Positions 4,924-60,249 of a DNA stretch of 64,000 nucleotides are shown in pieces. Each line of letters opens with the position of its first letter. The stretch's first letter is position 1. The stretch is from Clostridia bacterium (GTDB lineage Bacteria; Bacillota; Clostridia; TANB77; UBA1234): NCBI GenBank assembly GCA_017521465.1, contig JAFXCN010000020.1, forward strand, positions 5,797 to 69,796, in the 5' to 3' direction. The notes below the pieces were generated by a model, which was given only the letters and a program-made list of their open reading frames with translations, did no database searches and had not been told where the DNA came from. Made by a program: the position numbers and the translations under genes.

Positions 4924-5170
4924 ACGTCCGTCCAGTGAACACTTTGTGTCGGACAGAAAAATTCAGTCAGCGCACACTTTGTGTCGGACAGAAAAATTCA
5001 GTCAGTGAACATTTGTGTCGGACAGAAAAATTCAGCCAGCGCACACTTTGCGTCGGACAGAAAAATTCAGCCAGCGCACACTTTGCGTCGGACAGAAAAA
5101 TTCAGCCAGCGCACACTTTGCGTCGGACAGAAAAATTCAGTCAGTGAACATTTGTGTCGGACAGAAACTG
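4924..5170. repeat. tandem array of about 7 copies of a 34-35 bp unit (core GTCGGACAGAAAAATTCAG..CACACTTTG)
   Basis: Measured period is 35 bp (e.g. GCACAC at 5041, 5076, 5111). Two unit variants are present (CAGCGCACACTTTG and CAGTGAACATTTG). There are no unique spacers. Confidence 0.9.
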
Positions 5171-15116: not shown

Positions 15117-15190
15117 TGGAGGCGCCAATCAGATTTGAACTGATGATCAGGCTTTTGCAGAGCCGTGCCTTACCACTTGGCCATGGCGCC
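15117..15190 (-). tRNA. tRNA-Cys (anticodon GCA)
   Basis: Minus-strand sequence GGCGCCATGGCCAAGTGGTAAGGCACGGCTCTGCAAAAGCCTGATCATCAGTTCAAATCTGATTGGCGCCTCCA folds as a cloverleaf. Anticodon loop is CTGCAAA; T-loop is TTCAAAT; 3' end is CCA. Confidence 0.85.
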
Positions 15191-37071: not shown

Positions 37072-37419
37072 TTATTTCCAAACATTATATACCGTTTTAC
37101 CATCTTTGTTTTTTATTAAGTTGTAAACACCATCAAGTGTGTTTACATTAATAGAATTTTCATCATTAAAAATTTCAATTGTATGATTTTGATTTAATCC
37201 AAATGGATTTTGACCATCTGGGAAATATGATTTTGTTTCAACAATAATTTTATCATCATAAATATAATAAGTTTTGTCAGGACCATCTACATGTGACATA
37301 TTGTTTGTTAATATTAAATTATAATCTTCTGGTATGGTATAAGTTAATTTCCAAATTATAAAACTTAATATTATAAGTAGTACTATAACAGATATTGTTA
37401 TTATTATTTTCTTTTTCAT
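37072..37419 (-). CDS. hypothetical membrane-anchored protein
   Basis: N-terminal TM followed by a 90-aa beta-rich domain. Confidence 0.4.
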   Translation of the reverse strand: MKKKIIITISVIVLLIILSFIIWKLTYTIPEDYNLILTNNMSHVDGPDKTYYIYDDKIIVETKSYFPDGQNPFGLNQNHTIEIFNDENSINVNTLDGVYNLIKNKDGKTVYNVWK

Positions 37420-37453
37420 ATATTATGTAACCTTTCTGAAATTAAAATATTAT

Positions 37454-37792
37454 TTATAAATCCGTATTTTTATTGTTATTTTTTTTACTTTTAATATATA
37501 TTATTATTTTTGCACAAATAGTTATAAGTAGCACGATTACAGAAAGTATTGCACTACCGAAGCTGAATAAAACTTCACCCAAATATGATAATCCAGGCAT
37601 AAAGCCATAGCCAGGCAAGTTCTCATAATATTGCCATAATGTTATAGAAATTATAATAGAAAAAGTTTCTAATAAAAATACTTTTACCCAGCTTTTCGTT
37701 TCTTTCTTTTTTATAGCTTTTACTAATAAAACTATTTGTCCTATAAATATTACTAAATATAATATTAATACAAGTAAAGTTTCAATAGACAT
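37454..37792 (-). CDS. hypothetical 3-TM membrane protein
   Basis: Hydrophobic segments; no motif recognised. Confidence 0.35.
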   Translation of the reverse strand: MSIETLLVLILYLVIFIGQIVLLVKAIKKKETKSWVKVFLLETFSIIISITLWQYYENLPGYGFMPGLSYLGEVLFSFGSAILSVIVLLITICAKIIIYIKSKKNNNKNTDL

Positions 37793-37894
37793 TTTCTCTC
37801 CTCCGATAATTTTGAATTCATTACTCTATAAATAGTATACAATAAAATTATTTTCTCAACAATAAAAAAGACCGCAAAATGCGGTCGATTTATA

Positions 37895-38578
37895 TTAATC
37901 ACTACTTGACTTGAGTCTAAGTACATGCAAGAAAATATTAAGAAAGTCCAGATAAATTTCGAGTGCATAAAAGATTGCACATACATTTTCATTTTCGTTG
38001 AGCTTATAAGAGTTAGAATGATTCTTAATCTTATAAATATCGTATGCAGTAACGGCAACAAAAATTAGGATTGCAACTGCAGATACGACAAAGGAATAAA
38101 GACTATTATTTACGAAAATATCAACTATCAATGCAATAAGCAAGCCAATCAGAAGAATGGTCAAAATGCTACCCCAGGAGGAAAGATCCTTTTTGGTAAC
38201 AAAACCGTAAATTGCTGCAACAGCAAAGACTCCAGCTGCGATAAAGAATGCAGAATAAATATCAGGCAGTTCGTAAGCGCGGAAAATTATCGAAAGAACT
38301 ATACCTTCAAGTGCTGTATAGGTTATAAAGTAAAAATATGCAACGGGAGATGTAATACGACTAATAGTAAAACAAATAATGAATGTATATACAACAAGTC
38401 CAATGTTAAGTCCTATAAGCAAACCATTTGAAAGTACTGCGCCAGAATTAGCAATGCTATATGCAGTAATGCCAGAAATCAAAAGGCCCACAAACATCCA
38501 AAGAAATACTTTAGTAAACAATGAGCTAGATTCCGATTCATGTCGGACTTGATGGCTGTAAGGGCGGTAGTTTGTCAT
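37895..38578 (-). CDS. Bax-inhibitor-1/YccA-family membrane protein
   Basis: 7-TM protein. GC-rich hairpin terminator GACCGCATTTTGCGGTC at 37871-37895. Confidence 0.75.
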   Translation of the reverse strand: MTNYRPYSHQVRHESESSSLFTKVFLWMFVGLLISGITAYSIANSGAVLSNGLLIGLNIGLVVYTFIICFTISRITSPVAYFYFITYTALEGIVLSIIFRAYELPDIYSAFFIAAGVFAVAAIYGFVTKKDLSSWGSILTILLIGLLIALIVDIFVNNSLYSFVVSAVAILIFVAVTAYDIYKIKNHSNSYKLNENENVCAIFYALEIYLDFLNIFLHVLRLKSSSD

Positions 38579-38744
38579 CTTTGCTCCTCCTTTTTTGTTT
38601 CGTGTTCAACTTTAATTATGTCAAGTGAAATCTAAGGGCCATTCAATAGAATCATCCTTCTTTCTATTTAAATTTCGATTGAATTATATCAAATATCATG
38701 TTTTATGTCAAATTATAGAACTTATCTCCGAGCAAAAATGTCCG

Positions 38745-38860
38745 CTGGCAGGATTTTTTCGTCGGACACAAAACACATGATTTTGGACAATTTATGTCCG
38801 ACGTAAAGTATTCGCTGGGCGGACGTTTGTGTCCGACGAAAAGTGCTTGCCTCGTTTTGT
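38745..38860. repeat. GTCGGACA-family repeat copies in mixed orientation forming a 19-bp inverted repeat
   Basis: TTTTTCGTCGGACACAAAA (38766-38784) and TTTGTGTCCGACGAAAAGT (38836-38854) are inverted. Internal copy ATGTCCGACGTAAAGTATTCGCTGGGCGG. Confidence 0.8.
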
Positions 38861-38893
38861 GCAAAATGTTATCATTATTGTATGGAGGTTTCT

Positions 38894-39913
38894 ATGATTA
38901 GTTATGATGATTTGCCAGAGATTTTAGTTAATTATATGAATTATAATGCTAACTTGAATAGGTCTAAAAATTCAATTAATGAGTATCGTTATGATCTTAC
39001 TAGATTTCTGAAGTATATTAAAGTTTTGAAATTAAAAATAAAGACGAATTCTTTGGATGAGGTTGATATTAATGATGTTGACGAGAAGCTTTTGAATAAA
39101 GTTACTTTGAATGATTTGTATGCGTACATGACTTATTTGCGTGATGAATGTGGTAATTCTGCTACTTCTCGTGCTCGTAAGGTTGCTAGCATTAAAGGTT
39201 TTTTTAGATATTTGCATGTTAAGGCTAAACTTATTGATGATAATCCAGCTAAAGAATTAGAAAGTCCTAAAGTTGGTAAACGTTTGCCGAAGTATTTATC
39301 GCTTACAGAAAGTCAAGAATTGCTTGATAAAGCCAAGTCTGGTGATATTCATATTAGAAGTAAACGCGGAAAATCAGAACAAGATCTTAGTGAGAATCAA
39401 AAGAAGTTATCGGCTCGTGATTTTGCTATGATTACTTTATTTTTAAATTGTGGCATGCGTCTTTCAGAACTTGTTGGAATTAATTTAGAACATATTAAAT
39501 TTGATGAATGCAATTTGACTGTTATAGGAAAAGGAAATAAAGAAAGAACAGTCTACTTAAATAAAGCTTGTATAAATGCTCTTAATGAATATTTAAAAGT
39601 TAGACCTGATATTGATGGCAAAGATAAAAACGCTCTTTTCTTGAGTGAAAGAAAAAAACGTATAAGCAATAGAATGGTTCAAACTACTATTTCGGAATAT
39701 CTTAAAGCGGTTGGCTTAAGTGGTTATTCAACACATAAATTAAGACATACTGCGGCAACGCTTATGTATCAAAATGGTGTTGATGTAAGAGCGCTTCAAG
39801 AAATATTAGGACATGAAAGTATTGGTACAACTGAAATATATACACATGTAGATAATTATCAAATAAGACAAGCGATAGAAAACAATCCGCTTGCTGATTA
39901 TAAAGCAAAATAA
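38894..39913 (+). CDS. tyrosine recombinase, XerD/XerC-like
   Basis: C-terminal catalytic motifs HKLRHTAAT...LGHESIGTTEIYTH. ATG 38894 behind GGAGG. Hairpin terminator 39914-39942. Confidence 0.85.
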   Translation: MISYDDLPEILVNYMNYNANLNRSKNSINEYRYDLTRFLKYIKVLKLKIKTNSLDEVDINDVDEKLLNKVTLNDLYAYMTYLRDECGNSATSRARKVASIKGFFRYLHVKAKLIDDNPAKELESPKVGKRLPKYLSLTESQELLDKAKSGDIHIRSKRGKSEQDLSENQKKLSARDFAMITLFLNCGMRLSELVGINLEHIKFDECNLTVIGKGNKERTVYLNKACINALNEYLKVRPDIDGKDKNALFLSERKKRISNRMVQTTISEYLKAVGLSGYSTHKLRHTAATLMYQNGVDVRALQEILGHESIGTTEIYTHVDNYQIRQAIENNPLADYKAK

Positions 39914-39973
39914 AACTACGGAGAAAACTCCGTAGTTTTTTATACCAAAGAAAAGTTAAATGTATACAAATAT

Positions 39974-40246
39974 TTATACTGTAGGAATTAGTAGCTCCTG
40001 TCCTATGTAAATATCTGAATTGTTTAAATTATTTATTTTCTTTATTTCAAAAATATTTTCATTTATATTTCCATCAAGCGATTTTGCAATGCTCCAAAGT
40101 GTATCTCCATTAGAAACTATAACTTTTTCATATGTTGGTTCTTGATATGAAAAAACTCCTCCGAAAATACAATTAAATATAGAAAACATTAATATAAATA
40201 TTATTGACATTGATATTATAAATCTTGGCATACTCTTTATTCTCAT
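39974..40246 (-). CDS. LysM-domain membrane protein
   Basis: Signal-anchor plus LysM motif VSNGDTLWSIAKSL...IYIGQELLIP. Confidence 0.6.
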   Translation of the reverse strand: MRIKSMPRFIISMSIIFILMFSIFNCIFGGVFSYQEPTYEKVIVSNGDTLWSIAKSLDGNINENIFEIKKINNLNNSDIYIGQELLIPTV

Positions 40247-40445
40247 ATATAACACTCCTTCATCTCTAAAAGAACTCTTGTTCTTATCTATGATTAAATT
40301 ATATGCGAACATTTATTCTTTGTCAACAATTTTCGATAAAAAAACGCAAAAAAATGTTCGCCTTGTTTTGAAGTGAAGAACTAATAATAAAAGGTAAATA
40401 GTAAACGCCAAAAAACGATTGAGATTTCTCTCAATCGTTTTTGTC

Positions 40446-41654
40446 TTATTTTACAATATTCAATGTTTCTCTTGCGATGATGATTTCTTCGTTTGTTGCG
40501 ATTACGAACATTTTAACTTTAGAATCTGGTGTGCTAACGATTCCTTCATATTGTTCATCTCCAAGATGAGAATCATCATACTTAATTCCAAATTCTTCTA
40601 AACCTTCAATGCAGGCTTTTACAACATCAGGATTATGTTCTCCTATTCCGCCTTCAAATGTGATGCAATCGATATGACCAAGAACAGCCATGTATGCGCC
40701 AATGTATTTTCTAACTCTGTAAGCTAATACATCAAGTGCCATTGCAGCTCTTTCATCACCTTGATCACGTAATAATCTTAAGTCACGGATATCACCTGTT
40801 TTGCCTGAAAGTGCAAGCAATCCAGATTCTTTATTTAAAGTATTAAGCATTTGGTGAATGTCCATATTCTCTCTTTCCATAACGAATTCAAGAACAGCAG
40901 GATCGATATCACCGCATCTAGTACCCATAACAAGACCTTCAAGTGGAGTGAATCCCATTGATGTGTCTACACATTTACCATTTTTAACAGCTGTAATACT
41001 TGAGCCATTACCAAGATGGCAAGAGATCAAGTTAACTTCTGATAAGTCTTTACCAAGTAATTTTGCAGCTTCTTCAGTTACAAATTGGTGAGACATACCA
41101 TGAGCACCATATCTTCTAACACCATGTTTTTCATACCAATCATATTTAACGCCATACATATATGCTCTTTCAGGCATTGTTTGATGGAATGATGTGTCAA
41201 ATACCATTACTTGTGGAATTCCTGGCATTGTCTTTGTACAAGCAGAAACACCTTGAAGCGCTGGTGGATTGTGAAGTGGTGCGTATGGAATAGATTTTTC
41301 ATTGAATGTTTTTAATACTTCATCTGTAACTAATGTAGTCTTGTTGAAGAAAGGACCAGCATTAACTATTCTATGCCCAATCGCAGATATTTCTTTTAAT
41401 TCAGAAATAACTCCTACTTCTTTATCTAATAAGTAACGAACAACAGCTTCGAAAGCGGCTGTGTGATCTGGTAAAGGAAGTTCCTCAACCAATTTTCCAC
41501 TTTTTCCTTTATATTCGATAAAAGGTTTTCCAATTTCACCTTCTGCTGCACCGATACGGTCACATTTTCCTTTTGCAAGTACGCTTTCGTTTTCCATATC
41601 GATTAATTGATACTTAAGCGATGAGCTACCGCAGTTTACAACTAATACTTTCAT
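40446..41654 (-). CDS. ackA: acetate kinase
   Basis: N-terminal VLVVNCGSSSLKYQL and full-length acetokinase similarity. Terminator hairpin 40405-40440. Confidence 0.95.
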   Translation of the reverse strand: MKVLVVNCGSSSLKYQLIDMENESVLAKGKCDRIGAAEGEIGKPFIEYKGKSGKLVEELPLPDHTAAFEAVVRYLLDKEVGVISELKEISAIGHRIVNAGPFFNKTTLVTDEVLKTFNEKSIPYAPLHNPPALQGVSACTKTMPGIPQVMVFDTSFHQTMPERAYMYGVKYDWYEKHGVRRYGAHGMSHQFVTEEAAKLLGKDLSEVNLISCHLGNGSSITAVKNGKCVDTSMGFTPLEGLVMGTRCGDIDPAVLEFVMERENMDIHQMLNTLNKESGLLALSGKTGDIRDLRLLRDQGDERAAMALDVLAYRVRKYIGAYMAVLGHIDCITFEGGIGEHNPDVVKACIEGLEEFGIKYDDSHLGDEQYEGIVSTPDSKVKMFVIATNEEIIIARETLNIVK

Positions 41655-41971
41655 ATCCTAAATCCTCCCTGTTAATTAGTTTTAATTCGAGGAACATTCT
41701 ACCACAAATGACATAAAATATCAACAAAAAGACAAACAAAAATGTTAAGATTTAATTTGCAATAAGAAAAATGAAAATCTAAAAATCAAAGATTTTTGAT
41801 TTTCATATGTCGAGCTCCGCTCGACTTTAATATGAAGTTATTCTTGTATAATAGGAAAGAATATAAGTATAATTTTGGCTTGTAACGCTTGTTACACACA
41901 AGCTACAATCAAAAATTGTCGATAACTTTCCTATTATATAAAAAAGAGCAGATTGCTCTGCTCTAATTATC

Positions 41972-42772
41972 TTACTTTCCTCTACAGCCATTAACCCTGA
42001 GCTGGTAGTATATTGCATTCTTGGAAACTCCAAAGTATCGTGCCAGTTCTGTAACATTCCGCTGACCATTATGCCACATATCACAAAGAGCTTTAATCTC
42101 ATTTTCACGCAAACGCTCGCCAGTCTTGGGCCAGTCTTCTTTACTGGACATTTTGGATTGAGAAATCGGTTCGGCACTAGGCCGAGAAGTATTGCCATCT
42201 GTGGTAACAGTAGCCATTTGCTTCATGGATGCACGCTTCTGCTTCTTCTCTTCAGATGAACTGCACTCGGGAATTTTAGATGCCCAACGGCATACAGTTG
42301 CAATACTGACTTCAAATTCAGTAGCAATGTCAGCAATAGGCAGACAGTCGTTCCACATCTGTACGAACCGTTCCAGCTTGCCGGCAAGCTTGTCAGGAAT
42401 AAGCTGTTTAGCACCGATGCGCTTGAACGCTTTCCTCCTGCCATATCCATTCTTATAAGCATAGTTATATACGGAATTCTTCGTGACACCAAGTTGATCG
42501 GCCATCGTCTCGGCAGAGACACCCTCATTCCAGAGCTTCTCGAACAGCTCTTTGTCGATGCGCTTCCTGGTGGACTTTTTGGGCGCTTCAGAAGCCGCTT
42601 CTTCACGAATTTCAACTACCGTATTATCCTTTTTAGAAACATTCACATTAGGTTCAGCAGTGGTAGCATCATCACGATACACCCTGAAAACTACTTCGGT
42701 CGGGCTTGCTTGGATGAAATCAACCTTGATGCCTTCTTCGGCAACAAACCGGAAAGAGAACTCTTTCATTTT
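41972..42772 (-). CDS. GC-rich foreign gene: protein with three helix-turn-helix-like repeats
   Basis: Coding GC about 50% against a 28-30% background. Three copies of a pattern like LW(N/H)xG..V..(I/M)A..(F/L)GV(T/S)KN(S/A)(V/I)Y. Own terminator AGAGCAGAGCAATCTGCTCT followed by T7 at 41944-41968 (minus). Confidence 0.5.
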   Translation of the reverse strand, partial: KMKEFSFRFVAEEGIKVDFIQASPTEVVFRVYRDDATTAEPNVNVSKKDNTVVEIREEAASEAPKKSTRKRIDKELFEKLWNEGVSAETMADQLGVTKNSVYNYAYKNGYGRRKAFKRIGAKQLIPDKLAGKLERFVQMWNDCLPIADIATEFEVSIATVCRWASKIPECSSSEEKKQKRASMKQMATVTTDGNTSRPSAEPISQSKMSSKEDWPKTGERLRENEIKALCDMWHNGQRNVTELARYFGVSKNAIYYQLRVNGCRGK

Positions 42773-42941
42773 TTCCCCTCCTATGGGTTGGTTGGTTGTG
42801 TAGTAAAGTAACGCCATTAACAGATAAGAAAATTATCTCCTTTCCTTAGTTAATAGGTATAAACCAGAGGTATTATATCATAATAAAACAATTATGTAAA
42901 GCAAAAGAGACGAATTTTATGTTCGCCTCTTTTCTATATAT

Positions 42942-43934
42942 TTAATTATTTTGTGCTTGTACTGCAGTTATTGCAACAACTCCTACGATATCGTCAGCCT
43001 TACATCCTCTTGATAAATCATTAACTGGTCTTGCAATACCCTGTGTTACTGGTCCATATGCTTCAGCTTTTGCTAATCTTTCAACCAATTTATAGCCGAT
43101 ATTTCCTGCATTTAGGTCTGGGAAGATAAGTATGTTGGCTTTGCCTGCAACTTTGCTTTCTGGAGCTTTTTTAGCACCTACTGAAGGTACTATAGAAGCA
43201 TCTAATTGTAATTCTCCATCAACTGCTAATTCTGGCATTTTTTCTCTAACCAATTTAGTAGCTTCGATAACTTTTCCTGTCATTTCTGTTAAAGGTGCGC
43301 TACCTAATGATGAATATGATAACATAGATACTCTAGGTTCTGTACCGATTAATTGTTTCCATGTGTTTGCAGATGATATTGCTATTTCTGATAATTCTTC
43401 AGCATTTGGATTTGTATTTAATCCACAATCTGAGAATAGGAACATTCCGTCTTCTCCTAATTCGCAATTAGGAACTTGCATAATAAAGAATGAAGAAACT
43501 AGCTTAACACCAGGAGCTGTCTTTATTATTTGAAGTGATGGACGAAGTGTATCAGCTGTTGAGCATACGCTTCCAGCAACTAATCCGTCAGCATCTCCTT
43601 GCTTTATCATCATTGTGCCGTAATATATATTATCTTTCATTGTTTCTCTAGCTTTTTCTTCTGTCATTCCTTTAGCTTTTCTTAATTCATAAAAAGCTTG
43701 TACATAATCTTCAAATTTTTCACTATTTTCAGGGTCAATAACTTCAATGTCTGAAATATCTATATCGCTAACTGTTTTCAAATTTTCTCTATTTCCAATC
43801 AAAATTACTTTTGCAAAACCTTCATCAGCAATTTTACGAGCCGCTTCTAGCACTCTAACGTCACTACTTTCTGGTAATACAATTCTTTTAATATCTTTTT
43901 TTGCATTTTCTTTTACTTTATCAATAAAGTTCAT
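42942..43934 (-). CDS. pta: phosphate acetyltransferase
   Basis: Pta family. Start MNFIDKV at 43934 behind RBS AAAGGAGAG with a -10 TATAAT upstream. Own terminator at 42905-42935. Confidence 0.9.
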   Translation of the reverse strand: MNFIDKVKENAKKDIKRIVLPESSDVRVLEAARKIADEGFAKVILIGNRENLKTVSDIDISDIEVIDPENSEKFEDYVQAFYELRKAKGMTEEKARETMKDNIYYGTMMIKQGDADGLVAGSVCSTADTLRPSLQIIKTAPGVKLVSSFFIMQVPNCELGEDGMFLFSDCGLNTNPNAEELSEIAISSANTWKQLIGTEPRVSMLSYSSLGSAPLTEMTGKVIEATKLVREKMPELAVDGELQLDASIVPSVGAKKAPESKVAGKANILIFPDLNAGNIGYKLVERLAKAEAYGPVTQGIARPVNDLSRGCKADDIVGVVAITAVQAQNN

Positions 43935-44306: not shown

Positions 44307-44609
44307 TTATAAAATTGTCACGAAAGCTAAGTTATCTGCATTACAAATTGTTCTCCTGCCATTGCTTAACGAACATAGAGTTATATAGTCACAACCAACA
44401 GCCTCTAATACACCTGTAATCTCCTCTCTTTCTTCAGAATTAGGAAAAATAAATTCACACATACATCTACTTCCTATATATCTAGATAGATTATCAAGTA
44501 AAGTTTCGTCTCTATTACAGCAGCCTGTTCTAGGAGTTGTCGTTGTTAGGTTCAGAACAGCTGATGGATTAGTGTTATTATTATCTTCACCGCATAGACA
44601 TCTTCTCAT
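44307..44609 (-). CDS. hypothetical Cys-rich small protein (possibly spore-associated)
   Basis: 100 aa with 10 Cys (CLCG, CC, CMC). Confidence 0.3.
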   Translation of the reverse strand: MRRCLCGEDNNNTNPSAVLNLTTTTPRTGCCNRDETLLDNLSRYIGSRCMCEFIFPNSEEREEITGVLEAVGCDYITLCSLSNGRRTICNADNLAFVTIL

Positions 44610-45700: not shown

Positions 45701-45707
45701 TTATAAA

Positions 45708-46046
45708 AAGAGCAAATCTATAAGCCGGGTTCTGTATTTGATAATCATTTATCTAGGATATACATTGCTGTATACCTCAAGCCGCCTTCTTCAAGAAGTA
45801 ATAGCGGGCAACTTAAACTTCTTCCATGGCGTTGCTCCGAGTGGGGTTTACATAGCCAATATGTCTCCATATTGCTGGTAGGCTCTTACCCTGCCTTTCC
45901 ATCCTTACCTTATTACTAAGGCGGTATATTTCTGTTGCACTATCCTTAGAGTTACCTCCACCAGCCGTTAGCTGGCACCCTGCCCTGTGGAGCCCGGACT
46001 TTCCTCATATGCTATAAATAGCATCCGCGATTATCTGACTTACTCC
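45708..46046 (-). ncRNA. rnpB: RNase P RNA
   Basis: Minus strand contains GAGGAAAGTCCGGGCTCCACAGGGCAGGGTGCCAGCTAACGGCTGG and the 3' P4 strand ACAGAACCCGGCTTA. Promoter TTGACT-17-TATAAT at about 46060-46090 (minus). Ends are approximate. Confidence 0.85.
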
Positions 46047-53016: not shown

Positions 53017-53313
53017 TTACGCAGTGGCGGCTTCGACTTCCGCACGCAGCGCATCGTTGTCAAAATGAATTTCATTGAGAGAAACAGCCCTCTTCAGGAC
53101 AGCTTCCAGCGAATTCTGCAACTTAATAAACGGTACGAGCAACAGAGACTCGTTCATCTGATACTTTGCAATCTTTGCGGGATCGTCAGAATCCCACCAG
53201 GATACCTTGCCGTACTTGTCCATCACTGCGAGATAGGATTCTTCCTTTTCAGCAGGGACCTGCAGCACATTCCTGACATAATTCCGACGGATAACCAGCA
53301 TACGATCGACCAT
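53017..53313 (-). CDS. GC-rich hypothetical protein
   Basis: 98-aa ORF in a roughly 50% GC segment. GC-rich terminator GCCCGCCAGGTCATGGCGGGC at 52975-53010. Confidence 0.4.
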   Translation of the reverse strand: MVDRMLVIRRNYVRNVLQVPAEKEESYLAVMDKYGKVSWWDSDDPAKIAKYQMNESLLLVPFIKLQNSLEAVLKRAVSLNEIHFDNDALRAEVEAATA

Positions 53314-58010: not shown

Positions 58011-58054
58011 CCTTTTTTTGAGAAAAGTCAAGGTTATGTCCGTATAAAAATATA

Positions 58055-58175
58055 CTCTGTGTGAACTTTTGTGTCCGACGTAAAGTGTACGCTGGGTGAA
58101 TTTTTCTGTCGGACATAAATCTTTCGCTAGGAATCATTTTTCAACGGACACAAAAAAGTCGGCATATGGCCGACT
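58055..58175. repeat. GTCGGACA-family repeat copies (fourth locus)
   Basis: TTTTGTGTCCGACGTAAAGTGTACGCTGGGTGAATTTTTCTGTCGGACATAAA. Near-identical to the locus-3 internal copy and to the reverse complement of the array-1 unit. Confidence 0.8.
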
Positions 58176-58611: not shown

Positions 58612-59115
58612 TTAAGGTGCCATAGGGGGCACCACCGCGACCAGCCCCTTGTACTGGTCCTGGTATTCCGCCAGTTTGGTAGCCGTGTTGCGCTGCCAGC
58701 GGGCGCGTTCCTTGGTTTTCTTTGCCGTGTTTTCGACGTCAGCGGCAAAGGCCTCTACCTCGTTGCAAAGGAGCTCGAACGCTTCTGCGACGCCAACCTT
58801 GCCCAGGGCGGCAGTAGCAACCGCAGCCTCAGCTTCTTCGCTGTCCAGGAACTTGACGAAATCTTCAATTTCCTTTTCAAGCTTGAGCCACGGCTTTTTC
58901 TTCAGTTGCGCCTCTTTGAGCTTTTCGCCGATGCCCTTGAAAAGGTCAGTGCAGTTGGAGATAATCGCCGGTACAGAGCCTACCAGGGCAAAGGCGGCAA
59001 CAATGAATCCCCAGAAATTCTGGGTCTGGGTCTGCACGTTGGTGAAAACCTTCAGGGCCATGATGGCCAGAACGAAAGTGATAATGGGGTTCAGAACAGA
59101 AAGGGTCTTCTTCAT
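58612..59115 (-). CDS. GC-rich hypothetical membrane protein
   Basis: 167-aa ORF in a segment of about 58% GC. Terminator GGGAGGTCCCCGGAGTAAAATCCGGGGCCTCCC followed by T8 at 58560-58600 (minus). Confidence 0.4.
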   Translation of the reverse strand: MKKTLSVLNPIITFVLAIMALKVFTNVQTQTQNFWGFIVAAFALVGSVPAIISNCTDLFKGIGEKLKEAQLKKKPWLKLEKEIEDFVKFLDSEEAEAAVATAALGKVGVAEAFELLCNEVEAFAADVENTAKKTKERARWQRNTATKLAEYQDQYKGLVAVVPPMAP

Positions 59116-59402: not shown

Positions 59403-59831
59403 TTACTTTTCAGTTTCATCTTCAGATTCAGAAGATTCTTCAGTATCCTCTTCTACTGCATCAGGGTCGCACTCACTAACACACTCATCGCAGCAAGGAC
59501 AATCACATACATCATCTTCTACTTCATCTTCGCACTCACATTCACATTCACAGCAATCGCAAGCTTCGCAATTACACTCACAGTCCTTATCAAGGCCAAG
59601 TTTCTTGTCGATCCACTTTTCAGCCTTGTCAAGAGCAGCTTCACCAAAAATAAGTTCAAACAGTGCAACAATGATGCCAAGTGCAATAACCGCACCGATA
59701 ATCCAGAAAAGACCAATCTCAATGATGTAAAACACTGCGGACAGGATATTCCGTCCAAAGAAGAAATGGACTACGCCGATGAGCAGGCACAGAAGGGTAA
59801 ACGCAAGGGCCTTTTGACGAGACTTAGACAT
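59403..59831 (-). CDS. small membrane protein with Cys-rich acidic C-terminal tail
   Basis: Two TM helices, then DKDCECNCEACDCCECECECEDEVEDDVCDCPCCDECVSECD. GC-rich terminator at 59366-59395. Confidence 0.45.
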   Translation of the reverse strand: MSKSRQKALAFTLLCLLIGVVHFFFGRNILSAVFYIIEIGLFWIIGAVIALGIIVALFELIFGEAALDKAEKWIDKKLGLDKDCECNCEACDCCECECECEDEVEDDVCDCPCCDECVSECDPDAVEEDTEESSESEDETEK

Positions 59832-59946: not shown

Positions 59947-60249
59947 TTACATATCATTCCTGTCATTTCTCATAATCAAGGATTCAAATAACTCTTTCGC
60001 AGTCTTGCTCTTAGAAAAACTCATATATGCAACAAAGATAAAAGCAAGTATGATCGTTCCGCCAATTACCCAATAAAGCACATATTTTAGAGCCACCAAA
60101 GCAAGTTCTCCAATCATCAAAACGAATTCAATTAGGGTTTCACCAAAGAAGAAGAATATAACGCCAATCAAAAGAATTCCCAAAAGTGCCAATAATCCAA
60201 TCAACATCCGATCCTTGTTAGTCAACATAGGTATCCCTCCGTTTTTCAA
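59947..60249 (-). CDS. small membrane protein, paralog of 59403-59831 without the Cys tail
   Basis: Shared LLIGV..FFFG...IE.G..L motif. GC-rich terminator GCCGCCAGCAATAGCTGGCGGC at 59913-59940. Confidence 0.4.
   Translation of the reverse strand: MKNGGIPMLTNKDRMLIGLLALLGILLIGVIFFFFGETLIEFVLMIGELALVALKYVLYWVIGGTIILAFIFVAYMSFSKSKTAKELFESLIMRNDRNDM

What the first reader, a model, noticed from the sequence alone, without database searches (positions are those of the whole stretch)
41660..42935. GC-rich (about 50%) foreign cassette inserted between pta and ackA
pta and ackA are normally adjacent and co-transcribed. Here pta ends with its own terminator (42905-42935). A 1.2-kb segment of strikingly higher GC then follows. 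It carries one gene (41972-42772, minus) for a protein with three internal helix-turn-helix-like repeats and a GC-rich hairpin terminator. ackA presumably uses a new promoter in 41655-41830. This looks like horizontal acquisition of a DNA-binding protein, possibly a remnant of a transposase or phage N-terminal HTH module, that splits a core metabolic operon.
Basis: seen in the sequence. Interest (0 to 1): 0.65.

Follow-up and report, generated by a model that had tools for sequence, protein, structure and literature searches.

The report
Lineage-specific triple-HTH gene splitting pta–ackA
A GC-rich gene for a DNA-binding protein with three helix-turn-helix modules really does sit between pta and ackA, but a whole group of related gut Clostridia inherited it from one old insertion and keep it as a working gene, so it is a modest curiosity and neither a recent mobile cassette nor a transposase remnant.

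Summary
A 265-aa ORF (41972-42769, minus strand) lies between pta and ackA. Its GC3 is 0.46, against 0.17 +/- 0.04 for the other genes in the window (z = 7.6). Only the ~0.8-kb coding sequence is GC-rich; both spacers are AT-rich.

It is not an assembly artefact: 14 contigs from several samples show the same layout. Outgroup genomes (Pta 60-80% identical) have pta and ackA adjacent, so this is an insertion. It is old, though. Every relative examined (L020 and eight metagenome lineages) carries a homolog in the same slot.

The gene is under purifying selection (dN/dS 0.15-0.25). It has its own near-consensus promoter, an invariant SD-like 5'UTR motif and its own terminator. The ackA promoter pre-dates the insertion.

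The protein has an N-terminal beta-hairpin followed by three homeodomain-like HTH modules on flexible linkers. Most relatives also carry a paralog with nine to ten such modules. The window's species and L099 lack it, probably through recombination between duplicated promoters.

The closest named family is archaeal Cbp1, a tandem-HTH protein that binds CRISPR repeats, but the score is below that family's cut-off. The most likely function is a strongly expressed sequence-specific DNA-binding regulator with an unknown target. Why GC3 stays high is unexplained.

The parts
42942..43934 (-). pta (phosphotransacetylase), 330 aa
   Evidence: PF01515, E 8e-129. The start MNFIDKVK matches the gene calls in relatives.
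42903..42933 (-). pta intrinsic terminator hairpin (A-tract/U-tract type)
   Evidence: 12-nt arms, 92% complementary, 7-nt loop (I17). Conserved after pta in relatives. Absent in outgroup L022.
42872..42900 (-). promoter of the HTH gene: TTTACA, 17 nt, TG-extended TATAAT (11 of 12 matches)
   Evidence: CTTTACATAA and the GTGATAnAAT-type -10 element are conserved ahead of every HTH and big-paralog gene.
42826..42844 (-). nearly invariant 5'UTR motif GAAAGGAGATAATTTTCTT (SD-like; possible STAB-SD-type mRNA stabiliser or operator)
   Evidence: Identical or differing at 1-2 bases in all ten leaders aligned, including L020. It is the only copy in the window. No covariation-supported RNA structure.
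42775..42781 (-). ribosome-binding site GGAGGGG, 5 nt before the ATG
   Evidence: Sequence. The GGAGG core is conserved in all leaders.
41972..42769 (-). CDS of the 265-aa triple-HTH protein (stop codon included); GC 0.46, GC3 0.46
   Evidence: Identical to P0001. Composition. dN/dS 0.15-0.25.
42671..42769 (-). N-terminal conserved beta-hairpin domain (aa 1-33; FRF...EGIKVDF...PTEVVF)
   Evidence: Invariant columns in alignment A3. AF2 strands at 14-21 and 26-32, pLDDT about 75. Found only in this family.
42437..42568 (-). HTH module 1 (about aa 68-111)
   Evidence: Repeat HMM. AF2 helices 73-81, 86-93, 97-106, pLDDT 82-85. Hits to GcrA and resolvase HTH.
42260..42391 (-). HTH module 2 (about aa 127-170)
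   Evidence: Repeat HMM. AF2 helices 132-140, 145-152, 156-165. Pfam HTH_23 at 144-164.
41981..42118 (-). HTH module 3 (about aa 218-263), the most conserved module across the family
   Evidence: Repeat HMM. AF2 helices 222-233, 239-246, 250-260. Nearly unchanged in L020 and P0014 although overall identity is 36%.
41945..41964 (-). intrinsic terminator of the HTH gene (AGAGCAGAGCAATCTGCTCT followed by T6)
   Evidence: Conserved after both the HTH and big-paralog genes in relatives.
41731..41939 (.). 209-bp species-specific non-coding insert between the terminator and the ackA promoter
   Evidence: Absent in L016, L010 and L020, where the terminator abuts the ackA promoter. Flanked by TCTTTTT on both sides. 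RNA fold z = -6.96. All three window/L001 SNPs fall inside it.
41696..41724 (-). ackA promoter (TTGATA, 17 nt, TG-extended TAGAAT), older than the insertion
   Evidence: Homologous promoters in L016, L010, L012, L019 and L020, and in outgroups L021, L022 and L023.
40446..41654 (-). ackA (acetate kinase), 402 aa
   Evidence: PF00871, E 3e-142.

Best explanation
The common ancestor of a genus-level clade of uncultured, ~30% GC gut Clostridia acquired a gene, or a pair of paralogous genes, for tandem homeodomain-like HTH DNA-binding proteins. The donor was GC-richer. The DNA inserted between the pta stop codon and the pre-existing ackA promoter. The gene has been inherited vertically in that slot ever since, as its own transcription unit: pta terminator, near-consensus promoter, invariant SD-like 5'UTR motif, strong RBS, CDS, terminator.

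The window's copy encodes a 265-aa protein with an N-terminal beta-hairpin, probably an oligomerisation element, and three three-helix HTH modules on flexible, partly basic linkers.

Shown:
- the insertion, its age and its fixed location;
- purifying selection;
- the modular regulatory anatomy;
- a pta-HTH spacer that is a hybrid of the two spacers flanking the 9-10-module paralog in relatives, which fits loss of that paralog from the window's lineage by recombination between the duplicated ~85-bp promoter/leader repeats;
- mosaic alleles.

Inferred:
- the protein is strongly expressed and binds an extended or composite DNA site, each HTH reading a few base pairs, as Cbp1/Cbp2, Pax and Myb proteins do;
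- it acts as a transcriptional regulator or DNA-organising factor whose target is unknown, possibly its own conserved leader;
- pta and ackA are now transcribed separately.
For: Not an artefact: the identical gene lies in the same pta-HTH-ackA layout on 14 contigs from several samples and assemblers.

Insertion: pta and ackA are adjacent in L022-L034.

Age and fixed location: homologs of 36-82% identity occupy the same slot in L010, L012, L016, L019, L020, L099, L100 and L101. None was found in JGI metagenome contigs, IMG/VR or phage genomes.

Foreign composition: GC3 is 0.46, z = 7.6, and 0.32-0.47 in all alleles.

Working gene: dN/dS is 0.15-0.25, against 0.01-0.09 for pta and ackA. Invariant residues cluster in the N-domain and the three HTH cores, while the linkers vary.

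Structure: three HTH bundles at pLDDT 80-88 with disordered linkers. Pfam HTH_23, HTH_11 and HTH_7 score above their cut-offs.

Nearest named relatives: Cbp1 (NF040595: 26 bits here, 110 bits for the paralog), the GcrA DNA-binding domain, the resolvase HTH, and 2lvs.

Regulatory modules.

Hybrid spacer: 59/62 identical to the pta-type spacer, then 93/103 identical to the big-to-HTH-type leader.

ackA promoter present in outgroups.
Against: No experimental data were available, so DNA binding, the target site, expression level and the transcription units are all inferred.

GC3 stays high although alleles differ by dS 0.5-1, and are saturated against L020. Simple one-off acquisition followed by amelioration does not obviously predict that. 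Polarised synonymous changes show no net GC loss (11 versus 12), but the control genes behaved badly in that test, so it is inconclusive.

Mosaic alleles and dS values 1-3 times those of flanking genes leave room for allele replacement from an outside pool.

The donor is unknown.

The direction of the paralog event (loss versus gain) rests on parsimony across a handful of lineages. L020 also lacks the paralog.
Confidence: 0.72

Rival explanations
1. This is a recent, strain-level horizontal acquisition of a mobile cassette, namely a remnant of the N-terminal HTH module of a transposase or phage protein.
For: GC3 is 0.46 against a host value of 0.17. Single HTH modules give weak hits to the HTH regions of IS630, IS3, IS1, IS481 and IS21 transposases, and to PHROG entries for HNH endonucleases and small terminase subunits.
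Against: - The gene sits in the same slot in every clade member examined, out to 36% protein identity.
- dN/dS is 0.15-0.25.
- There is no DDE, HNH or recombinase domain.
- Transposase models score 16-21 bits against cut-offs of 100-224.
- No convincing terminal inverted repeats or target duplications flank the gene. The only flanking inverted repeat (I4, 15 of 19 bases) has one arm inside the CDS.
- Phage genomes and IMG/VR give no match.
- The nearby tyrosine recombinase (38882-39913) is syntenic in outgroups L021 and L022, so it is a core gene.
Confidence: 0.05
2. The locus is a cassette-exchange hotspot. Alleles of the tandem-HTH gene are repeatedly replaced or patched by recombination with a GC-richer external gene pool, which keeps GC3 high and makes the alleles mosaic.
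For: - P0002 is 96% identical to P0001 at the N-terminus and 100% identical to P0004 at the C-terminus.
- The HTH gene's dS is 1-3 times that of its flanks.
- GC3 is still 0.35-0.47 in all close alleles, with no visible net GC-to-AT flux.
- The slot also takes other cargo: NUDIX and Ham1 genes in L021, and ECF-S and MetRS-like genes in L012 and L019.
- P0018, an unrelated-locus array in another 29% GC genome, is also GC3-rich and has a similar promoter.
Against: The mosaicism seen is between alleles inside the clade, not with outsiders. No external source was found among 5.8 billion proteins (13 hits, all at this locus in the contexts examined) or in the contig collections. Non-coding flanks, including the leader, terminator and ackA promoter, are collinear and conserved, as expected for vertical descent.
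Confidence: 0.15
3. It is a bacterial analogue of archaeal Cbp1 and Cbp2. The tandem-HTH proteins bind tandem DNA repeats, for example the 35-bp-period palindrome arrays in this genome or a CRISPR array elsewhere, and organise or insulate their transcription.
For: The best NCBIfam hit for both proteins is HTH_Cbp1. The top Foldseek and second PDB sequence hit is 2lvs, titled a CRISPR repeat binding protein. Cbp1 and Cbp2 use two or three HTH repeats with basic linkers to bind a 25-bp repeat (PMC3597662). The window holds four arrays of a 17-bp palindrome at 35-bp spacing: 34 strand matches against 0.35 expected.
Against: Scores are below the family cut-off (26 and 110 bits against 140). L020 has a family member but no array at the syntenic site. 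No CRISPR array lies in the window. The arrays could belong to any other DNA-binding protein. No co-variation or co-occurrence test was possible beyond three loci.
Confidence: 0.08

Closest known systems
Cbp1/Cbp2, archaeal CRISPR DNA repeat-binding proteins (NCBIfam NF040595; PDB 2lvs; PMC3597662)
   Same: Small proteins made of two or three imperfect tandem homeodomain-like HTH repeats joined by flexible, basic linkers, with no enzymatic domain. This is the best NCBIfam hit for both the window's protein and its paralog and the top Foldseek hit.
   Different: - Scores fall below the family cut-off (26 and 110 bits against 140).
- The host is a bacterium, not a crenarchaeon.
- There is an extra N-terminal beta-hairpin domain and a ~50-aa disordered linker.
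- The paralog has nine to ten modules.
- No CRISPR association is known.
GcrA N-terminal DNA-binding domain (PF07750; PDB 5yiu)
   Same: Module 1 shares the motif LWxxGxSxxxIAxxLGv(T/S)xNxV (E 8e-4).
   Different: The match covers a single module only. The score is 21.7 bits against a Pfam cut-off of 26.9. The GcrA C-terminal sigma-70-binding domain is absent.
HTH_7/HTH_23 DNA-binding domains of serine resolvases and IS630/Tc1-mariner transposases (gamma-delta resolvase 1gdt; Tc3 1u78; Mos1; SETMAR)
   Same: The same three-helix, homeodomain-like fold. Pfam HTH_7 (30.3 bits) and HTH_23 (31.1 bits) pass their cut-offs. Bipartite transposase HTH domains appear among the Foldseek hits.
   Different: There is no catalytic domain, no inverted terminal repeats and no mobility. 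The gene is fixed at one locus and under purifying selection.
Eukaryotic linked-HTH factors (Pax paired domain, Myb repeats, DUX4 double homeodomain)
   Same: A beads-on-a-string arrangement of HTH modules that reads a composite site (Foldseek hits; the analogy is drawn for Cbp2 in PMC3597662).
   Different: This is analogy only. There is no significant sequence or whole-chain structural match; every hit has E > 1e-3.

Membership tests
Cbp1 (NCBIfam NF040595, HTH_Cbp1) | Whole-protein score at or above the curated cut-off of 140 bits | tested here: not met
   25.8 bits (E 8e-6) for the window's protein and 110.1 bits (E 7e-32) for the 10-module paralog.
Cbp1 (NCBIfam NF040595, HTH_Cbp1) | Two or three tandem imperfect HTH repeats joined by basic linkers, with no other catalytic domain | tested here: met
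   Three HTH bundles. The linker between modules 1 and 2, GRRKAFKRIGAKQLIPDKLAGK, is basic. An extra N-terminal hairpin is present.
Cbp1 (NCBIfam NF040595, HTH_Cbp1) | Specific binding to CRISPR repeats | not testable with these tools
   There is no CRISPR array in the window, and a binding assay would be needed.
GcrA (PF07750 / NF050816) | Score above the curated cut-off, plus a C-terminal sigma-70-interacting domain | tested here: not met
   Pfam 21.7 bits against 26.9. NCBIfam 20.3 bits against 280. Only positions 9-49 of the model match.
Homeodomain-like HTH (Pfam HTH_23 PF13384, HTH_7 PF02796, HTH_11 PF08279) | Domain score above the gathering threshold | tested here: met
   HTH_23 31.1 against 24.6, HTH_7 30.3 against 23.8, HTH_11 31.1 against 25.
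IS transposase (IS630, IS3, IS1, IS481, IS21) or a remnant of one | Match to a transposase model above its cut-off, a catalytic DDE region or its relics, and terminal inverted repeats | tested here: not met
   Scores of 16-21 bits against cut-offs of 100-224, restricted to one HTH. No TIRs or target-site duplication around the gene. dN/dS of about 0.2 argues against decay.
Free-standing homing endonuclease or phage HNH protein | An HNH, GIY-YIG or LAGLIDADG nuclease domain alongside NUMOD/HTH modules | tested here: not met
   PHROG hits to HNH-endonuclease families cover only their HTH parts. Pfam finds no nuclease domain. No phage match.
Horizontally acquired genomic islet | Absent from outgroups with an intact empty site | tested here: met
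   pta and ackA are adjacent in L022-L034.
Horizontally acquired genomic islet | Atypical composition | tested here: met
   GC3 of 0.46 against 0.17 +/- 0.04.
Horizontally acquired genomic islet | Associated mobility functions (integrase, tRNA target, flanking direct repeats) | tested here: not met
   None found in 41.6-43.0 kb. The nearby tyrosine recombinase is syntenic in outgroups.
Anti-phage defence systems (PADLOC) | Significant full-length match to a defence protein model | tested here: not met
   Only generic HTH-level hits: mad1 over 21 residues, and the Csa3 and CasR HTH regions.

The most novel reading that the evidence does not exclude
Bacteria may have an uncharacterised class of Cbp1-like tandem-HTH array proteins with 2 to more than 10 modules (934 representatives at E <= 1e-3). 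On this reading they bind tandem DNA repeats, and in this clade their targets would be the 35-bp-period palindrome arrays. Their persistently GC-rich coding sequence in AT-rich hosts would be actively maintained and not simply left over from transfer.
Probability: 0.08. Interest if true: 0.6.

Novelty: new member of a known kind. Interest (0 to 1): 0.3.

Why it matters
The finding shows how a core fermentation gene pair (pta-ackA) can be split permanently by an acquired regulator-like gene at no obvious cost. That was possible because ackA already had its own promoter.

It also defines a small, uncharacterised, lineage-restricted family (N-terminal hairpin plus 2-4 HTH modules) and points to a much wider, unstudied set of bacterial proteins built only from tandem homeodomain-like HTH modules. 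Their nearest characterised relatives are the archaeal CRISPR-repeat-binding proteins.

The practical impact is small unless the DNA target turns out to be interesting. The unexplained persistence of high GC3 is the one feature worth a closer look.

Tried and rejected
- **Exact-protein look-up.** P0001 worked.
- **Chimeric assembly.** Rejected: 14 concordant contigs.
- **MITE or IS around the gene.** Rejected: there are no flanking repeats beyond chance, and the 209-bp insert is single-copy in the window.
- **RNA element in the conserved leader.** Only a 6-bp hairpin at -3 kcal/mol with no covariation. Rfam finds nothing in 40-46 kb except RNase P.
- **Defence system.** PADLOC gives only generic HTH hits.
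- **Phage or viral origin.** No hits.
- **JGI metagenome scan for the family.** No relatives found.
- **Polarised synonymous-substitution test for amelioration.** It gave 11 GC-to-AT against 12 AT-to-GC changes. The control genes gave implausible equilibria (pta 8 against 30, rluD 4 against 29), so I treat it as inconclusive.
- **Link between the 35-bp arrays and the HTH family.** The syntenic site in L020, which has the family, lacks the array. Scans of the metagenome and viral collections for the array pattern found only two single chance-level matches.
- **Context of an out-of-clade array, P0018.** It sits next to TetR and MMPL genes, which says nothing about function.
- **Whole-chain fold search.** Uninformative, with no hit at E <= 1e-3, because the model is three independent domains on flexible linkers (pTM 0.27).

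Full report
**1. What is in the sequence**

The window is 30.9% GC. On the minus strand, pta (42942-43934; PF01515, E 8e-129) and ackA (40446-41654; PF00871, E 3e-142) flank a single ORF.

The real start codon is the ATG at 42769, which follows GGAGGGG-AAAAA. This gives a 265-aa protein identical to database protein P0001.

The ORF has GC 0.46 and GC3 0.46. The 53 other ORFs in the window average GC3 0.170 with SD 0.038, so z = 7.6. Only the coding sequence is GC-rich. The two spacers are 28-33% GC, so the '1.2-kb GC-rich segment' is really about 0.8 kb.

The pta terminator (42903-42933) and the ORF's own terminator (41945-41964) are both present.

**2. Not an artefact, and not recent**

The identical protein is encoded on 14 contigs from several samples and assemblers, always in the order pta-HTH-ackA.

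A search of 5.8 billion proteins found only 13 relatives, at 46-100% identity. Every context I could recover places the homolog immediately downstream of pta, in the pta-ackA interval: L010, L012, L016, L019, L099, L100 and L101.

A scan of species-representative genomes with Pta gave the phyletic pattern:

| Locus | Pta identity | What lies between pta and ackA |
|---|---|---|
| L020 | 91% | a 211-aa family member, only 36% identical, in the same slot |
| L021 | 81% | NUDIX and Ham1 genes |
| L022-L034 | 60-80% | nothing; gaps of about 14-200 bp |

So the gene is an insertion into an ancestrally contiguous pair. It dates to the ancestor of a genus-level clade and has stayed at one locus. The family was not found in JGI metagenome contigs, IMG/VR or phage genomes.

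**3. Anatomy of the module**

DNA alignments give sharp boundaries. Every gene in the island is preceded by the same leader of about 170 bp:

- the previous gene's terminator;
- a near-consensus promoter. In the window this is TTTACA, 17 nt, TG-extended TATAAT at 42872-42900;
- a nearly invariant 19-nt motif, GAAAGGAGATAATTTTCTT (42826-42844). It is the only copy in the window, and it is present ahead of every family gene, including in L020;
- a strong RBS.

The motif has no covariation-supported structure. It resembles the SD-like 5' stabilisers described by Agaisse and Lereclus in 1996 (STAB-SD), a paper I saw only in the reference list of PMC3997798. That resemblance rests on my own knowledge and is not tested here. 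The motif could equally be an operator.

Downstream, in L016, L010 and L020, the HTH terminator directly abuts the ackA promoter, GTTGATA...TGGTAGAAT. The same type of promoter precedes ackA in outgroups L021, L022 and L023. ackA therefore did not need a new promoter. The insertion landed between the pta stop codon and an existing ackA promoter, and brought or evolved terminators.

**4. The paralog and its loss**

Most relatives carry a second gene of 457-478 aa between pta and the HTH gene. It consists of nine to ten tandem copies of the same ~45-aa module (blastp E 1e-13 to 1e-16; repeat-HMM hits).

The window's pta-HTH spacer is a hybrid. Its first 62 nt match the pta-to-paralog spacer of L016 at 59/62. 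The remaining 107 nt match the paralog-to-HTH leader at 93/103, against 73/98 for the alternative. This fits deletion of the paralog by recombination between the duplicated promoter/leader repeats. L099 has the same junction.

**5. Selection and diversity**

| Gene | Protein identity among the close lineages | dN/dS |
|---|---|---|
| pta | 96-99% | 0.01-0.07 |
| ackA | 97-98.5% | 0.04-0.09 |
| rluD | 84-93% | 0.11-0.14 |
| HTH gene | 70-82% | 0.15-0.25 |
| 9-10-module paralog | 54-62% (L012/L016: 94.5%) | 0.23-0.33 |

Invariant residues cluster in the N-terminal hairpin and the three HTH cores. The low-complexity linkers carry most of the change, including tandem duplications.

Module number varies from two (P0015) to four (P0002, P0008, P0011). 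Alleles are mosaic: P0002 is like P0001 at the N-terminus and identical to P0004 at the C-terminus.

This is a working, fast-evolving gene and not a decaying remnant.

**6. The protein**

AlphaFold, run on the 12-sequence alignment, predicts the following:

- a beta-hairpin at residues 14-32;
- three three-helix bundles at 73-106, 132-165 and 222-260, with pLDDT 80-88;
- disordered linkers, with an overall pTM of 0.27.

Pfam HTH_23, HTH_7 and HTH_11 pass their cut-offs.

The nearest solved or named relatives all match at the level of single or paired modules:

- the GcrA DNA-binding domain;
- the gamma-delta resolvase HTH;
- 2lvs, titled 'CRISPR repeat binding protein', which is the Cbp2 structure described in PMC3597662;
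- NCBIfam HTH_Cbp1, at 26 bits here and 110 bits for the paralog, against a cut-off of 140.

Cbp1 and Cbp2 use two or three HTH repeats with basic linkers to bind a 25-bp repeat (PMC3597662).

A profile search of 1.84 billion representatives found 934 proteins at E <= 1e-3. Many are pure arrays of 3-12 such modules. The architecture with the N-terminal hairpin occurs only in this clade.

No transposase, nuclease or defence model fits.

**7. Mechanism**

Inferred: the gene is strongly expressed, given its near-consensus promoter, SD-like leader and strong RBS. The protein is a DNA-binding protein that reads a composite site with three tethered HTH modules, and it may oligomerise through the N-terminal hairpin. 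It is most likely a transcriptional regulator or DNA-organising factor. Its target is unknown.

Module 3 and the leader motif are the most conserved protein and DNA elements, respectively. That makes autoregulation a reasonable but untested guess.

**8. What remains unexplained**

GC3 is 0.32-0.47 in every allele despite substantial synonymous divergence. The paralog is close to host composition, at 0.21-0.28.

An unrelated six-module array, P0018, lies in another 29% GC genome. It is likewise GC3-rich (0.38 against 0.15-0.21 for its neighbours) and has a similar promoter.

My polarisation test showed no net GC loss, but it failed its controls. Incomplete amelioration, allele replacement and active maintenance all remain possible.

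**9. Verdict**

The 'recent mobile remnant with a new ackA promoter' reading is wrong. The gene is a new, lineage-restricted member of the tandem homeodomain-like HTH proteins. Interest is modest.

Noticed in passing
window 41731-41939: A 209-bp non-coding insert found only in this species, flanked by TCTTTTT on both sides. It folds strongly as RNA (z = -6.96). All three SNPs that separate the window from L001 over 11 kb fall inside it, and two haplotypes occur across samples. No Rfam match.
   Followed up: partly
window 4932-5167, 33711-33904, 38756-38842, 58053-58119; L016 9083-9239: Intergenic tandem arrays of 2-7 copies, at exactly 35-bp spacing, of a 17-bp imperfect palindrome, TTTnTGTC(G/C)GACAnAAA. 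There are 34 strand matches against 0.35 expected. One array lies directly upstream of the XerC/D-like recombinase gene. The arrays are absent from the syntenic site in L020, L021 and L022, have no Rfam family, and are essentially absent from the metagenome and viral collections.
   Followed up: partly
window 53017-53313, 58612-59115, 59403-59831, 59947-60249 (all minus strand): Four more small ORFs with strongly elevated GC3 (0.57, 0.69, 0.38, 0.40) and no Pfam match. One is a Cys/Glu/Asp-rich protein containing CECNCEACDCCECECECE. They suggest the genome carries several GC-rich orphan genes.
   Followed up: partly
window ~36000-40500: Cumulative GC skew peaks here and gene orientation switches, next to a XerC/D-like tyrosine recombinase gene (38882-39913, plus strand) that is syntenic in outgroups. 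This may be the replication terminus region.
   Followed up: no
window 45705-46046 (-), 34494-34686 (+), 15120-15190 (-): RNase P RNA class A, which explains the GC-rich patch at about 45.7-46.1 kb. Also a T-box leader upstream of the ORF at 34772-36058, and a tRNA.
   Followed up: yes
L016 7007-7429 (-); L012 5408-9227; L019 5317-9135; L021 10121-11289: The pta-ackA neighbourhood takes insertions repeatedly.
- L016 has a GC3-rich (0.57) 140-aa orphan gene between ackA and the LysM gene.
- L012 and L019 have a GC3-rich ECF S-component, a MetRS-like paralog and small ORFs between the HTH gene and ackA.
- L021 has NUDIX and Ham1 genes between pta and ackA.
   Followed up: partly
L102 1-1115: P0018 is a six-module tandem-HTH array next to TetR and MMPL genes in another ~29% GC genome. 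It is also GC3-rich (0.38 against 0.15-0.21) and is preceded by CTTTACATAAT...TGATATAAT, much like the window's promoter.
   Followed up: partly
window 44307-44609 (-): A small Cys-rich ORF (MRRCLCGEDNNN...) upstream of pta is conserved in position but diverges quickly among relatives (59-95% identity, against 96-99% for Pta). No Pfam match.
   Followed up: no
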